IMG/VR virus record: IMGVR_UViG_3300029068_000019
Source: a virus
Taxonomy: Duplodnaviria > Heunggongvirae > Uroviricota > Caudoviricetes
Length of the DNA: 12,528 bases
Reading direction: 5' to 3' (one strand)
Of the stretch, positions 1 to 12,528 are shown piece by piece. Position 1 is the first letter of the stretch. Every line of letters begins with the position of its first letter. The position numbers and the translations under genes were made by a program. The notes below the pieces were generated by a model. That model searched no databases, had not been told where the DNA came from, and was given only the letters and a program-made list of their open reading frames with translations.

Positions 1-115
1 TGTGGCGGCCTCAGTCCGGAACAATTTGAAAACCAGAACCTCGCTTAGGCCTGTGTCCATATTACGTGGGTAGGATCAGGTCGCTGTCTTCACAGCTTAC
101 GAACCTGAGGAGTAA
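1..115 (+). pseudogene. hok-family (HokD/RelF-like) toxin gene, 3' terminal remnant
   Basis: Frame 2 ends ...VAVFTAYEPEE then TAA at 113-115, matching the HokD/Gef C-terminus as I remember it. The same frame has an in-frame TAG at 71-73 and the upstream translation does not look like a Hok transmembrane segment, so only the last ~13 codons are recognisable. 5' end is cut by the window edge. Confidence 0.4.
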
Positions 116-1996: not shown

Positions 1997-2374
1997 ATGC
2001 GTGATATTCAGATGGTTCTTGAGCGTTGGGGGGCATGGGCGGCTAATAATCATGAAGATGTGACCTGGTCGTCCATTGCCGCCGGTTTTAAGGGATTAAT
2101 TCCTTCAAAAGTAAGATCTCGTCCGTAATGCTGTGACGATGACGCGATGATCATTTGTGAATGTATGGCTCGCCTGAAAAAAAACAACAGCGATTTACAT
2201 GATTTATTGGTGGACTATTATGTCGGCGGCATGACTTTTATGGCGCTTGCACGTAAGCATGGGCGATCTGATTGTTGGGTTGGCAGGATGCTCCAGAAAG
2301 CTGAGGGCGTAGTGGAGGGCATGCTGATGGTGTTGGATCTCCGATTGGAGATGGATGCTGATTGTTCGAAATAA
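1997..2374 (+). pseudogene. Late antiterminator Q (short QuuD-like family) interrupted by in-frame TAA at 2126-2128
   Basis: ATG 1997 with GGAG 7 nt upstream gives [43 protein letters not shown], then TAA, then in the same frame [18 protein letters not shown]...LEMDADCSK to the stop at 2372-2374. Joined length is 125 codons, the size of short prophage Q proteins, and sits immediately upstream of a promoter/terminator pair. A single C-to-T change in a CAA (Gln) codon would create this stop. Confidence 0.6.
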
Positions 2375-7072: not shown

Positions 7073-7323
7073 ATTAATATTAAATCGGATTATTTTTAGC
7101 GCTGAATGTGAAATTTAAATAAAAAGGACTCTTCCATGAGTCAAAATCCTTGAAATCTTAAGGGTAAGATAAAAGGTCATTAGACAGAATGACACGTTTT
7201 ATTAATAAATAAAGCTATTGTTTCATTCGTGTGTTTTTCTTTACAAAAGTAATCCTTGCTATGGTTGGTTAATCATGCGTTAATGGTGTTCTGGTTTGTT
7301 ACAAAATTATCTGAAGCAGTCAT

Positions 7324-7332
7324 TGTTATAAT
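7324..7332 (+). promoter_or_regulatory. Candidate extended -10 promoter (TGtTATAAT) for the cold-shock gene, implying a ~100-nt leader
   Basis: Perfect TATAAT at 7327-7332 with TG at 7324-7325, inside a long AT-rich untranslated region. No convincing -35. Confidence 0.3.
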
Positions 7333-7432
7333 TTTATTATTTGTACCTCTTGAGATTTCCTTGTTGGTTTTTCTCTCTGATATTTTTTTTCGGACCATTC
7401 TGCCCAAGGGCTAACTTCTTCAAAAGGTAATA

Positions 7433-7648
7433 ATGATGTCTAACAAAATGACTGGTTTAGTGAAATGGTTTAACCCTGAAAAAGGTTTTGGTTTCATCAC
7501 GCCGAAAGATGGTAGCAAAGATGTGTTTGTGCATTTCTCAGCTATTCAGAGCAACGATTTCAAAACGTTAACTGAGAATCAGGAAGTCGAATTTGGTATT
7601 GAGAACGGACCTAAAGGCCCTGCAGCTGTTCATGTAGTGGCACTTTGA
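7433..7648 (+). CDS. CspA-family cold-shock protein (CspB/CspI-like)
   Basis: [24 protein letters not shown]...VFVHFSAIQ carries the RNP1/RNP2 motifs. The true start may be the second ATG at 7436 (MSNKMTG...). AAGG Shine-Dalgarno upstream. Confidence 0.9.
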
Positions 7649-7852
7649 GGTAGAAAATATTACAAACCATATTCACTTTAGATGCCCGTGTTGCCATGGT
7701 TCTCAGTATAGAACATCATCTTTTGATGTTTCTGACAGAAATCCTTTCGGGGCAAAATGTATCTTTTGTAAATCAATGATGATTACATTTGATAATATTT
7801 CACAATACTTAAATGTTAGCCATCTGTCGTTAGATTTAAGAAAGTGAAAATG

Positions 7853-9445: not shown

Positions 9446-9550
9446 TGTTTTATTTTTATGGTGTCGATTCTGATTGTTTTTTGTTCATCACTAACACCGT
9501 TTGCCTAAAGTTGTTCGCAAGATGCATGTTTAAAACATTCTGGAGCGGGT

Positions 9551-10045
9551 ATGGATCGAGAGTTAAAAAATCTGACGCTGAATATCAGTCAACTGGCGGC
9601 ATTGTCAGGTGTACATCGCCAGACTGCTGCGGCAAGGCTGCAAAATCTACCCGTTGCAGGGGGGCATGAAAGCAACCTCAAGCTTTATCGGGTGGTTGAT
9701 ATTGTGTCGGCATTTCTGGCATTACCACCGCCGGTTGCAGAAGGCGAAATGGACGCGCATGAGCGCAAAGCCTGGTATCAGTCTGAACGTGAGCGTCTTA
9801 AGTTCGAACAGGAAACGGCACAACTCATTCCGGCCAGTGATGTCAGACGGGAGTTTGCCATCTGGGCAAAAGCGGTCGTGCAGGTGCTGGAGACATTACC
9901 GGATATTCTTGAACGTGACTGCGGTCTGCAGCCTGCCGCTGTGAGCCGTGTTCAGTCCATTATTGATGATCTGCGCGATCAGATAGCCCTGCGGGTGACT
10001 GAAGCAGGTGCGGATGATGAGGAGGAATTACAGCAGGAGGAGTAA
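9551..10045 (+). CDS. Terminase small subunit (Nu1/NohA-like)
   Basis: 164 aa. N-terminal helix-turn-helix LNISQLAALSGVHRQTAAARLQ, acidic C-terminus, stop overlapping the large-subunit ATG (TAATG). Lies just downstream of the cos-like site. Confidence 0.75.
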   Translation: MDRELKNLTLNISQLAALSGVHRQTAAARLQNLPVAGGHESNLKLYRVVDIVSAFLALPPPVAEGEMDAHERKAWYQSERERLKFEQETAQLIPASDVRREFAIWAKAVVQVLETLPDILERDCGLQPAAVSRVQSIIDDLRDQIALRVTEAGADDEEELQQEE

Positions 10046-12147
10046 TGCTGAATCAGGAAACCGCAAAGGCAGCACGAACCGATTCAGGTTATATCCTTCG
10101 CGCACCGAGACGAATGCGGGTTGCTGATGCCGTTGCTCAGTATATGCGGGTGCCCATGGGGGCAGGGAACTCAGTCCCGTGGGATCCGCTGGTGGCACCG
10201 TATGTTATTGAGCCTATGAACTGCCTGGCCTCGCGTGAATACGACGCAGTGATATTTGTTGGCCCGGCACGAACCGGCAAGACTATCGGCCTGATTGACG
10301 GCTGGGTGATTTACAACGTGATTTGCGATCCTGCTGATATGCTGATCATTCAGATGACGGAGGAAAAAGCCCGCGAACACTCCAAAAAACGACTCGCCAG
10401 AACGTTTCGCGTCAGCCCGGAAGTGGTCAGTCGCCTGAGTCCGAACAAAAATGACAACAACGTTTATGACAGAACATTCCTTGCTGGCAACTACCTGAAA
10501 ATCGGCTGGCCGTCAGTCAATATCATGTCTTCATCAGATTATAAATGCGTGGCGCTGACGGATTATGACCGTTTTCCGGAAGATATTGATGGTGAGGGGG
10601 ATGCCTTCTCTCTTGCCTCAAAACGTACCACCACATTTATGTCCAGTGGTATGACGCTGGTGGAGAGTTCCCCCGGCAGGGATGTGAAGGATGTGAAATG
10701 GCGACGGACTTCACCGCATGAGGCTCCACCAACCACGGGGATCCTGTCGCTCTATAACCGTGGCGATCGCCGTCGCTGGTACTGGCCCTGTCCACACTGT
10801 GGTGAGTATTTTCAGCCCTGCGGCGATGTGGTTGCTGGTTTCCGTGATATTGCCGATCCTGTGCTGGCAAGTGAGGCGGCTTATATTCAGTGTCCTTCCT
10901 GTTCAGGACGGATTTTGCCTGAACAAAAACGCGAGCTGAACGGACGTGGGGTCTGGTTACGGGATAGTGAATCCATCAATGCAGATGGCAGTCGTTATGG
11001 TGATCCCCGGCGTTCACGTATTGCGTCATTCTGGATGGAGGGTCCGGCAGCTGCTTATCAGACACTCTCGCAACTCGTTTACAAACTGCTTACTGCAGAA
11101 CAGGAATACGAGACAACCGGAAGTGAAGAGACACTCAAGACGGTTATCAATACCGACTGGGGATTACCTTATCTTCCCCGCGCCAGCATGGAGCAACGAA
11201 AAAGTGAATTGCTTGAGCAGCGGGCAGAGCCAGTTCCTTCCCGCAGTGTGCCGGATGGCGTTAATTTCCTTGTGGCGACAGTGGATGTGCAGGCGGGACG
11301 TCATCGCCGTTTTGTGGTTCAGGTAACGGGCTATGGCAGCCGTGGCGAACGCTGGATTATTGATCGTTACAACATCACGCAGTCATTGCGCGGTGACAGC
11401 GACGGGGAGAGCCAGCGAATTGATCCGGCCAGCTATCCGGAAGACTGGGATGTCCTGCTGACGGATGTTTTTCATAAAAGCTGGCCGCTGGCCTCCGATC
11501 CTTCTCAACAAATGCGACTGATGGCAATGGCGGTGGACTCCGGCGGTGAAGACGGGGTCACTGATAATGCCTATAAATTCTGGCGTCGTTGCCGTCGTGA
11601 TGGCCTTGGTAAACGTATTTACCTGTTTAAGGGCGACAGCATCCGGCGCGCAAAACTGATCACCCGTACATTCCCTGATAACACCGGACGAACGGGCCGA
11701 CGGGCGCAGGCCGCAGGTGATGTACCGCTCTGGCTTCTTCAGACGGATGCCCTGAAAGACCGGGTGAATAACGCGTTATGGCGTGACTCGCCAGGTCCCG
11801 GCTATGTGCATTTCCCTGACTGGCTGGGGAGCTGGTTTTACGACGAACTGACGTATGAAGAGCGGAGCAGTGACGGGAAATGGAGTAAGCCGGGTCGCGG
11901 TGCCAACGAAGCTTTTGACCTGATGGTGTATGCCGAGGCTCTGGTCATTCTGCATGGATACGAAAAGATCCGCTGGCCGGATGCACCGGAGTGGGCGAGC
12001 CGGGAAACCTGGCTGGAGTGTGTCCCGGACAGTACCGAACCGTCACCCACACCGGAACCGGTATCCACGCCTGTTAAAAAACAAAAACGGAAGAAAACAG
12101 TAACTGACGATGTTAACCCCTGGCTGACTTCCGGAGGATGGTTATGA
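10045..12147 (+). CDS. Terminase large subunit (lambda gpA family)
   Basis: 700 aa. Walker A-like VIFVGPARTGKT and a CPHCGEYFQPCGD segment resembling lambda gpA CPHCGEEQYLKFGD. Order Nu1-A-W-portal is conserved. Confidence 0.9.
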   Translation: MLNQETAKAARTDSGYILRAPRRMRVADAVAQYMRVPMGAGNSVPWDPLVAPYVIEPMNCLASREYDAVIFVGPARTGKTIGLIDGWVIYNVICDPADMLIIQMTEEKAREHSKKRLARTFRVSPEVVSRLSPNKNDNNVYDRTFLAGNYLKIGWPSVNIMSSSDYKCVALTDYDRFPEDIDGEGDAFSLASKRTTTFMSSGMTLVESSPGRDVKDVKWRRTSPHEAPPTTGILSLYNRGDRRRWYWPCPHCGEYFQPCGDVVAGFRDIADPVLASEAAYIQCPSCSGRILPEQKRELNGRGVWLRDSESINADGSRYGDPRRSRIASFWMEGPAAAYQTLSQLVYKLLTAEQEYETTGSEETLKTVINTDWGLPYLPRASMEQRKSELLEQRAEPVPSRSVPDGVNFLVATVDVQAGRHRRFVVQVTGYGSRGERWIIDRYNITQSLRGDSDGESQRIDPASYPEDWDVLLTDVFHKSWPLASDPSQQMRLMAMAVDSGGEDGVTDNAYKFWRRCRRDGLGKRIYLFKGDSIRRAKLITRTFPDNTGRTGRRAQAAGDVPLWLLQTDALKDRVNNALWRDSPGPGYVHFPDWLGSWFYDELTYEERSSDGKWSKPGRGANEAFDLMVYAEALVILHGYEKIRWPDAPEWASRETWLECVPDSTEPSPTPEPVSTPVKKQKRKKTVTDDVNPWLTSGGWL

Positions 12148-12356
12148 ATCAGAATGATATTGAAGCCATGATTCAGCGTTATACGGAAGCTGAAATGGCG
12201 GTGCTGGACGGAAAATCCGTCACTTTTAATGGTCAGCAGATGACCATGGAAAACTTATCTGAGATCCGGCAGGGGCGGCAGGAGTGGGAGCGCCGCCTTG
12301 CGGCTCTGATTACACGACGACGGGGGCATCCCGGGTACCGGCTGGCGAGGTTCTGA
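12144..12356 (+). CDS. gpW-like head-tail joining protein
   Basis: About 70 aa ending ...LITRRRGHPGYRLARF, comparable to lambda gpW ...TQRRRGPAGFYV. GGAGG lies 6 nt upstream of ATG 12144. Overlaps the terminase stop, and its TGA overlaps the portal ATG. Confidence 0.7.
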   Translation: MNQNDIEAMIQRYTEAEMAVLDGKSVTFNGQQMTMENLSEIRQGRQEWERRLAALITRRRGHPGYRLARF

Positions 12357-12457
12357 TGGCAATTCTTGATGATGTGATTGGCGTTTTTTCACCAGGATGG
12401 AAAGCGGCAAGGCTGCGTTCCCGAGCGGTGATCCAGGCTTATGAGGGGCTTTGTTGA
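12356..12457 (+). pseudogene. Portal protein gene (lambda gpB family), N-terminal 33 codons only
   Basis: MAILDDVIGVFSPGWKAARLRSRAVIQAYEGLC then TGA. The N-terminus looks like lambda-family portal proteins. A portal should run about 500 codons, and no frame downstream continues recognisably. Confidence 0.55.
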
Positions 12458-12528
12458 ATAAATAAGATTTCGTGCGAACGACCCTGTAGCTGGCTGGATT
12501 TTCAGGCAATACGCACGCTTTCTGGCAT

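What the first reader, a model, noticed from the sequence alone, without database searches (positions are those of the whole stretch)
12356..12528. Portal gene stops after 33 codons: likely deletion or rearrangement junction
The portal start is in the expected place, overlapping the gpW stop, and the first ~30 residues look portal-like. The frame then ends at 12455-12457 and none of the three frames downstream continues as a recognisable portal. The sequence from about 12447 to the window end may therefore be unrelated DNA joined by deletion, and the head genes may be missing.
Basis: partly seen in the sequence, partly recalled or inferred. Interest (0 to 1): 0.45.

Follow-up and report, generated by a model that had tools for sequence, protein, structure and literature searches.

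The report
Insertion sequence interrupting a prophage portal gene
The portal gene of an E. coli lambda-like prophage stops early because a common 1-kb mobile element (an IS903-group insertion sequence) has jumped into codon 31, and the window ends there only because assemblers break at such repeats; this is ordinary.

Summary
A portal ORF starts at 12356, overlaps the stop of the upstream W-like gene and ends at TGA 12455-12457 (33 codons). Homology to intact phages and prophages stops exactly at 12446.

From 12447 to the window end, all 82 nt are identical to one end of a 1056-bp IS903-group (IS5-family, ISKpn74-like) insertion sequence. The IS terminal repeat supplies the stop codon.

The reciprocal junction exists in public contigs (IMG/VR L003; ENA L009-L011). 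It reads: other IS end, the same 9 bp CTTATGAGG, then the rest of the portal and about 8 kb of head and tail genes. Joining the two halves restores an intact 502-aa lambda-family portal, 496/502 identical to phage mEp460.

The same left junction occurs in at least 4 human-gut metagenome contigs, three of them read and identical to the window. Every contig on either side stops about k-1 or k nt into the IS.

This is therefore a simple IS insertion with a 9-bp target duplication, and the contig is broken in the repeat. It is not a deletion, and the head genes are probably not missing.

The prophage has other lesions: a Q nonsense codon in the window and a tape-measure deletion in the partner contigs. 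Low interest; already known.

The parts
9551..10045 (+). Gene at the small-terminase position (DUF1441 family); context only
   Evidence: PF07278 E = 2.7e-41. The collinear gene is annotated terminase small subunit in mEp460.
10045..12147 (+). Terminase large subunit (gpA-like), intact, 700 aa; context only
   Evidence: PF05876 and PF20454. Annotated as such in E. coli and phage records.
12138..12356 (+). W-like head-tail adaptor gene (70-72 aa); its TGA overlaps the portal ATG
   Evidence: ORF. Annotated hypothetical / DUF6148 / head-tail adaptor / gpW in collinear records. No Pfam hit here.
12356..12446 (+). 5' fragment of the lambda-family portal gene: codons 1-30 plus the first base of codon 31
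   Evidence: 100% identical to E. coli prophage portals and 99% to mEp460 and cdtI. All alignments end at 12446.
12438..12446 (.). Left copy of the 9-bp target-site duplication, CTTATGAGG
   Evidence: Present once in intact prophages. Repeated immediately after the other IS end in L003, L009, L010 and L011.
12447..12528 (-). Terminal 82 nt of an IS903-group (IS5-family, ISKpn74-like) insertion sequence. This is the end next to the transposase C-terminus, so the IS is antisense to the phage late genes.
   Evidence: 82/82 identical to L001 1501-1582 of the 1056-bp element on pLVPK.
12447..12463 (.). Terminal inverted repeat of the IS, GGCTTTGTTGAATAAAT
   Evidence: 17-nt perfect inverted repeat between the two ends of the reference copy. 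Identical to the first 17 nt of the published IS903B IRL and IRR (PMC10569121).
12455..12457 (+). TGA stop that ends the truncated portal ORF; it lies inside the IS inverted repeat (IS positions 9-11)
   Evidence: Residues 31-33 (GLC) and the stop are read from IS sequence.
12502..12528 (-). Last 8 codons and the stop of the IS transposase gene (MPESVRIA*)
   Evidence: Translation. Matches the annotated 'IS5 family transposase' CDS, L001 1556-2524 on the minus strand.

Best explanation
An IS903-group insertion sequence of the IS5 family (about 1.06 kb, ISKpn74-like) transposed into codon 31 of the portal gene of an mEp460/Qin-like lambdoid prophage of E. coli. Its DDE transposase made a 9-bp staggered cut at CTTATGAGG, which is now duplicated on both sides of the element. 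The IS lies antisense to the phage late operon. Reading from the portal ATG, translation runs 30 portal codons, then three codons (GLC) and a TGA supplied by the IS terminal repeat. This gives a 33-aa product that lacks the entire portal domain. The rest of the portal and the head and tail genes lie beyond the IS. The window ends 82 nt into the IS because the IS is multi-copy and short-read assemblers break contigs there. Consequence (inferred): no portal, so no procapsid assembly or DNA packaging, and the prophage cannot make infectious particles unless the IS excises precisely. Shown: breakpoint, IS identity, target duplication, the reciprocal junction in partner contigs, and restoration of the ORF in silico. 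Inferred: that the window's own genome carries the partner sequence, that a single full-length IS lies in between, and the phenotype.
For: 1. Phage and prophage homology ends at 12446 in 56 phage records and about 1,900 E. coli genomes. An intact prophage continues ...CTTATGAGG|CCGTAAAAACG.
2. Window 12447-12528 is 82/82 identical to the end of a 1056-bp element with 17-nt terminal inverted repeats and a 322-aa transposase. The transposase hits NF033579 at 350 bits (cut-off 140), plus PF13737 and PF01609.
3. The predicted reciprocal junction (other IS end + CTTATGAGG + CCGTAAAAACG...) exists in IMG/VR contig L003 and in ENA contigs L009-L011.
4. Window 12356-12446 joined to L003 92-1509 gives a 502-aa ORF with no internal stop. 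It hits PF05136 at 6.6e-82 and TIGR01539 at 1.7e-136, and is 496/502 identical to the mEp460 portal.
5. The junction-specific 33-aa ORF is on 4 independent ENA gut-metagenome contigs. The three that were read have 0 mismatches to the window over about 3.6 kb.
6. Left-junction contigs end 126 (k127), 118 (k119) and 55 nt into the IS. Right-junction contigs start 127, 119 and 54 nt inside it. The window has 82 nt and L003 has 82 nt.
7. A 9-bp duplication is the published IS903 signature (PMC2577343 Table 1; PMC10513040).
8. L003 downstream of the IS encodes ClpP-protease/capsid fusion, decoration protein, Z, U, V, G, T, tape measure and M, collinear with mEp460.
Against: - No single contig spans the whole insertion, so the interior of the IS at this site (full length? 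one copy?) was not seen.
- The window's own source could not be found in any collection, so pairing it with L003 rests on identical alleles and the matching 82-nt overhangs.
- No left- and right-junction pair from the very same sample was displayed. The closest are adjacent runs ERR525704 and ERR525705 of study PRJEB6456.
- The target flanks do not fit the preferred IS903 motif WTTYA-N9-TRAAW: 1 of 10 positions match (one search compared).
- None of 5,426 complete E. coli genomes carries this insertion, so no finished assembly confirms it.
Confidence: 0.92

Rival explanations
1. IS-mediated adjacent deletion or rearrangement. The IS sits at 12447, but in the window's own genome the DNA on its far side is not the portal remainder, so the head genes are lost.
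For: The window stops inside the IS, so its far side is unobserved. This prophage family does decay by deletion elsewhere: in E. coli H2 the portal's 3' end is fused to a tail-fibre-assembly fragment. Many chimeric portal fusions are on record.
Against: At least seven public contigs (L003 plus six ENA contigs, three of them read) carry the exact reciprocal junction with a perfect 9-bp duplication. They continue into head and tail genes at 100% or near-100% mutual identity. The left-junction contigs are 100% identical to the window. A deletion would remove the duplicated copy. L003 carries the same 82-nt IS overhang as the window.
Confidence: 0.04
2. A larger insertion: a composite transposon bounded by two directly oriented IS903-group copies with cargo between them, rather than a single IS.
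For: No contig spans the insertion. IS903-group elements do form composite transposons, for example Tn903 (own knowledge). A 9-bp duplication would also result from such an event.
Against: The two junctions show opposite ends of the element: the transposase C-terminal end on the left and the N-terminal end on the right. That is what a single copy gives. Inverted-repeat composites like Tn903 would show the same end type at both junctions. Nothing points to cargo.
Confidence: 0.03
3. Artefact: an assembly chimera, or a frameshift or sequencing error inside an otherwise intact portal gene.
For: The junction lies at a contig end, where misjoins can occur.
Against: The identical junction was assembled independently by different assemblers and k-mer sizes in several samples. 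The sequence identity switches abruptly from phage to IS rather than shifting frame. A matching target duplication sits on the partner side.
Confidence: 0.01

Closest known systems
ISKpn74 / IS903B (IS903 group, IS5 family) insertional gene inactivation in Enterobacteriaceae, e.g. mgrB, wcaJ and cirA in Klebsiella (PMC10513040, PMC9769677, PMC13618097, PMC10569121)
   Same: Same element type: the GGCTTTGTTGAATAAAT terminal repeats, a length of about 1.06 kb, an IS5-family DDE transposase, a 9-bp direct repeat of the target, and simple disruption of a coding sequence. The window's end is 100% identical to the 1056-bp copy on pLVPK and pK2044. The partner end matches the published IS903B IRL 50/50.
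   Different: The host here is an E. coli prophage gene, not a Klebsiella chromosomal resistance or capsule gene. No selectable phenotype is evident. The exact isoform cannot be named: the window's end differs from the published IS903B IRR, and the right end has 2 mismatches in 127 nt to the pLVPK copy.
IS-disrupted morphogenesis and packaging genes in defective lambdoid prophages of E. coli, e.g. nu1 of Sakai prophage Sp4 (PMC2669165)
   Same: A lambdoid prophage made defective by an IS landing in a gene essential for virion production. Other lesions accumulate in the same prophage.
   Different: A different IS family and a different target gene. Here the allele is seen in gut-metagenome E. 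coli rather than O157.
Portal protein of phages mEp460 and cdtI (lambda-family portal, PF05136 / TIGR01539)
   Same: The reconstructed gene is 502 aa and 496/502 identical to the mEp460 portal. It sits in the same terS-terL-W-portal-protease/capsid order.
   Different: In the window only codons 1-30 remain upstream of the IS. The Pfam portal domain starts at residue 35, so none of it is in the 33-aa product.

Membership tests
IS903 group, IS5 family insertion sequence | Characteristic terminal inverted repeat (GGCTTTGTTGAATAAAT...) | tested here: met
   Window 12447-12463 equals both ends of the reference copy (17-nt perfect inverted repeat). It also equals the first 17 nt of the published IS903B IRL and IRR.
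IS903 group, IS5 family insertion sequence | 9-bp target-site duplication flanking the element | tested here: met
   CTTATGAGG at window 12438-12446 and again directly after the other IS end in L003, L009, L010 and L011. It is single-copy in intact prophages. A 9-bp duplication is published for IS903.
IS903 group, IS5 family insertion sequence | Encodes an IS5-family DDE transposase | tested here: inconclusive
   The reference copy's 322-aa protein hits NF033579 at 350 bits (cut-off 140), plus PF13737 and PF01609. The window holds only the last 8 codons and the stop (MPESVRIA*). The gene at this insertion site was not seen.
IS903 group, IS5 family insertion sequence | Element length about 1.06 kb (IS903B 1057 bp; ISKpn74 1056 bp) | not testable with these tools
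   No contig spans the insertion. All contigs stop 54-127 nt into the IS. The reference copy on pLVPK is 1056 bp.
Lambda-family phage portal protein (PF05136 / TIGR01539) | Full-length match to the family models above the curated cut-offs | tested here: met
   Met for the in-silico rejoined gene: PF05136 at 275.9 bits (cut-off 32.9) and TIGR01539 at 455.4 bits (cut-off 172.7). The 33-aa ORF actually present in the window ends before the domain begins at residue 35.
Lambda-family phage portal protein (PF05136 / TIGR01539) | Position directly downstream of the large terminase and W-like genes and upstream of the protease/capsid gene | tested here: met
   terL 10045-12147, W-like gene 12138-12356, portal start 12356. 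The ClpP/capsid fusion follows the portal remainder in L003. Collinear with mEp460.

The most novel reading that the evidence does not exclude
The same triply damaged prophage turns up base-identical in several independent human-gut metagenomes. Its lesions are portal::IS, a private Q nonsense codon and an in-frame 601-codon tape-measure deletion. It could therefore be a stably maintained, 'grounded' prophage kept by selection for its cargo or immunity functions rather than a random decay intermediate. Alternatively, the unseen interior of the insertion could be a composite transposon carrying cargo.
Probability: 0.05. Interest if true: 0.3.

Novelty: already known. Interest (0 to 1): 0.08.

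Why it matters
It matters mainly for annotation. The 33-codon 'portal' is an IS-disrupted pseudogene and should be called that. The contig end is a repeat-induced assembly break, not the edge of the prophage, and the head genes should not be scored as absent. Viral-contig catalogues will split such a prophage into two 'incomplete' contigs (the window and an L003-like partner) and may misjudge its completeness. Biologically it is one more routine example of a lambdoid prophage being inactivated by a plasmid-borne IS.

Tried and rejected
- Exact left-junction 37-mer scans found nothing in genome contigs, viral contigs or metagenome contigs. The window's own source was never found.
- Right-junction scans of metagenome contigs and genome contigs also found nothing.
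- No complete E. coli genome, phage record or plasmid record spans the junction.
- A search of the full IS against PGAP-annotated E. coli genomes, run to obtain a curated isoform name, returned only 'IS5 family transposase'. The ISKpn74-like label therefore rests on length, host plasmids and literature.
- The large protein search did not itself isolate the truncated portal, which is buried in a 5,530-member cluster. An exact look-up of candidate start sites did isolate it.
- No same-sample left and right pair was displayed. The closest are adjacent runs of one study.
- The IS903 preferred target motif does not fit this site.
- A terminator scan of the IS in the phage-sense strand found nothing, so there is no evidence for intrinsic-terminator polarity.
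- Frameshift or sequencing error, and assembly chimera, were considered and rejected. Homology switches abruptly to IS sequence, and independent assemblies reproduce the junction.

Full report
**Observation**

The 70/72-aa W-like gene ends with TGA at 12354-12356. An ATG at 12356-12358 opens a frame reading MAILDDVIGVFSPGWKAARLRSRAVIQAYEGLC, which stops at TGA 12455-12457. This ATG is the annotated portal start in collinear records: L002 3857 in E. coli FDAARGOS_1285 and mEp460 2830. The upstream genes are a DUF1441 protein at the small-terminase position and a 700-aa gpA-type large terminase.

**Where homology ends**

Window 11500-12528 was searched against 5,426 complete E. coli genomes and against 50,697 phage records. 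Every good alignment covers query positions 1-947 and stops there, which is window 12446. Identity is 100% to several E. coli prophages and 99.2-99.4% to phages mEp460 and cdtI. The whole-window search behaves the same way. An intact prophage reads ...CAGGCTTATGAGG|CCGTAAAAACGACG, whereas the window reads ...CAGGCTTATGAGG|GGCTTTGTTGAATAAATAAG.

**What the foreign DNA is**

- Window 12447-12528 is 82/82 identical (E = 5e-34) to a sequence annotated 'IS5 family transposase'. It is present at >=99% identity on at least 1,527 plasmids, mostly Klebsiella.
- On pLVPK the complete element spans L001 1501-2556 (1056 bp). It has 17-nt perfect terminal inverted repeats (GGCTTTGTTGAATAAAT) and a 322-aa transposase on the minus strand.
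- That protein matches NCBIfam NF033579 (IS5 family transposase) at 350 bits against a cut-off of 140. It also matches Pfam DDE_Tnp_1_5 and DDE_Tnp_1.
- The window holds the transposase's last eight codons and stop (MPESVRIA*, 12528-12502, minus strand). The IS is therefore antisense to the phage late genes.
- The published IS903B IRL and IRR begin with the same 17 nt (PMC10569121).
- ISKpn74 is described as 1,056 bp, IS903 group, IS5 family, and present in NTUH-K2044 (PMC9769677). The NTUH-K2044 plasmid carries the identical 82 nt (H2).
- I therefore call the element IS903-group, ISKpn74-like. The exact isoform could not be named, because PGAP gives only 'IS5 family transposase'.
- The TGA that ends the portal ORF is IS positions 9-11. 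Residues 31-33 (GLC) are read from IS sequence.

**Insertion or deletion?**

IS903 makes 9-bp target duplications (PMC2577343 Table 1; PMC10513040). A simple insertion therefore predicts a right junction of ...ATTTATTCAACAAAGCC + CTTATGAGG + CCGTAAAAACG.... An exact-match scan for that 44-mer found IMG/VR contig IMGVR_UViG_3300029068_000009 (L003, 8,357 bp).

- L003 starts with 82 nt of the opposite IS end: 81/82 identical to the pLVPK copy and 50/50 to the published IS903B IRL.
- It then has CTTATGAGG, and then the portal from nt 92 onward.
- Joining window 12356-12446 to L003 92-1509 gives a 1,509-nt ORF with no internal stop. It matches PF05136 at 6.6e-82 and TIGR01539 at 1.7e-136. It differs from the portal of the plaque-forming phage mEp460 at 6 of 502 residues.
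- Downstream, L003 encodes a ClpP-protease/capsid fusion, decoration protein, Z, U, V, G, T, tape measure and M, collinear with mEp460.
- In the first 1,618 nt after the IS, L003 differs from the same E. coli prophage that matches the window at 100% by only 3 substitutions and one 1-nt indel.

**Independent occurrences and why the window ends here**

The 33-aa junction ORF exists only if this insertion exists. An exact look-up found it on four ENA human-gut metagenome contigs.

- The three left-junction contigs that were read have 0 mismatches to the window over about 3.6 kb. They end 126 nt (k127 assembly), 118 nt (k119) and 55 nt (SPAdes) into the IS.
- The N-terminally truncated portal ORF downstream of the IS (447 aa, GTG at L003 166) is on six ENA contigs.
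- The three right-junction contigs that were fetched carry the exact right junction and duplication. They start 54, 119 and 127 nt inside the IS. Downstream they have 0, 0 and 4 mismatches to L003.
- Contigs that stop about k-1 or k nt into a sequence are the signature of a multi-copy repeat breaking a de Bruijn assembly.
- The window (82 nt of IS at its end) and L003 (82 nt at its start) fit the same pattern and look like partner contigs of one assembly. That pairing is an inference.
- Left and right junctions both occur in study PRJEB6456, in adjacent runs ERR525704 and ERR525705. No pair from the very same sample was displayed.

**Mechanism and consequences**

Shown: a DDE-transposase IS inserted with a 9-bp staggered cut into codon 31 of the portal gene. 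The 33-aa product contains none of the portal domain, which starts at residue 35.

Inferred from established lambda biology: without portal there is no procapsid initiation or DNA packaging, so the prophage cannot produce infectious particles. Only precise excision of the IS would restore the gene. No intrinsic-terminator-like site lies on the phage-sense strand of the IS, so I have no evidence for strong transcriptional polarity.

Late transcription is probably already compromised. The Q antiterminator gene in the window (1997-2374) carries a TAA at codon 44 (position 2126), where E. coli H2 has CAA. In one search, none of the 431 complete genomes matching this stretch of Q is identical to the window over the 61 nt around it: the listed hits each differ at exactly one base, and E. 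coli H2 differs from the window only at 2126 in this stretch. The insertion site does not resemble the preferred IS903 target motif WTTYA-N9-TRAAW, matching at 1 of 10 flank positions.

**Rivals**

- IS-mediated deletion with loss of the head genes remains formally possible for the window's own genome, because its far flank is unseen. This prophage family does suffer such deletions: in strain H2 the portal is fused to a tfa fragment. However, the perfect duplicated 9-mer, the multiple partner contigs and the matching overhangs make it unlikely (about 0.04).
- A composite transposon with two direct IS copies cannot be excluded without a spanning read (about 0.03). The two junctions show opposite IS ends, as a single copy would.
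- Chimera, frameshift or sequencing error is excluded by independent assemblies and by the abrupt switch of identity.

**Comparison with the known, and verdict**

This is the standard behaviour of IS903-group elements, which inactivate mgrB, wcaJ and cirA in Klebsiella. It is also a standard route of prophage decay; for example, nu1 of O157 Sakai prophage Sp4 is disrupted by an IS (PMC2669165). None of 5,426 complete E. coli genomes carries this particular allele, but that makes it only a new instance, not a new kind. The interpretation 'unrelated DNA joined here' is right, while 'deletion, head genes missing' is not supported. Interest is low.

Noticed in passing
window 1997-2374 (nonsense codon at 2126-2128): The Q antiterminator gene is annotated intact (125 aa) in E. 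coli H2. In the window it has CAA->TAA at codon 44, splitting it into 48-aa and 75-aa ORFs. None of the 431 complete E. coli genomes matching this stretch of Q is identical to the window over the 61 nt centred on position 2126; the listed hits differ at exactly one base. It is a second, private lesion in this prophage, or a read error.
   Followed up: yes
L003 6668/6669 (also L009 6631-7893; L010 ends exactly at this point): The partner contigs lack 1,803 bp (601 codons, in frame) of the tape-measure gene relative to mEp460 (mEp460 9497-11299). This leaves a 420-430-aa tape measure instead of 1,021 aa. L010 terminates exactly at the breakpoint, which suggests that both variants, or a homologous prophage, coexist in that sample.
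   Followed up: partly
L002 3857-5364 and L004 15279-16676: The same portal gene is independently damaged in other E. coli. FDAARGOS_1285 has a 1-nt frameshift. Strain H2 has a 3' deletion that fuses the portal to a tail-fibre-assembly fragment next to pinQ. Many chimeric portal fusions (with DUF1441, terminase, ClpP or tape-measure domains) appear among the homologues.
   Followed up: partly
window ~8913/8914: Three independent ENA contigs that share the portal::IS junction all begin about k-1 or k nt to the left of this point, at window 8788, 8795 and 8859. This implies a second repeat or strain-variation boundary, in the region between gnsB and the DUF1441 gene, that those assemblies could not cross but the window's assembly did.
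   Followed up: no
window 7278-7694: Rfam cspA thermoregulator hit at 110 bits against a gathering score of 78. It covers the 5'UTR and CDS of a prophage-borne cspI-like cold-shock gene. The 2.5 kb between the Rz-like gene (ends 7072) and the DUF1441 gene (starts 9551) holds only small cargo genes such as cspI, ynfQ, ynfN and gnsB. That explains the lack of long ORFs there.
   Followed up: partly
window 1-77: Most close E. coli matches begin at window 78, inside or next to hokD (L004 annotation). Only strain XH988 aligns from position 1. The first 77 nt therefore differ between otherwise near-identical Qin-like prophages.
   Followed up: no
IS right end in L003, L010 and L011 (66 and 116 nt from the IS end): The IS copy inserted in the portal differs from the pLVPK reference at 2 of 127 nt at its right end, but at 0 of 126 nt at its left end. 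The window's left end also differs markedly from the published IS903B IRR, while the right end equals the IS903B IRL. The IS903-group isoforms therefore look mosaic.
   Followed up: partly
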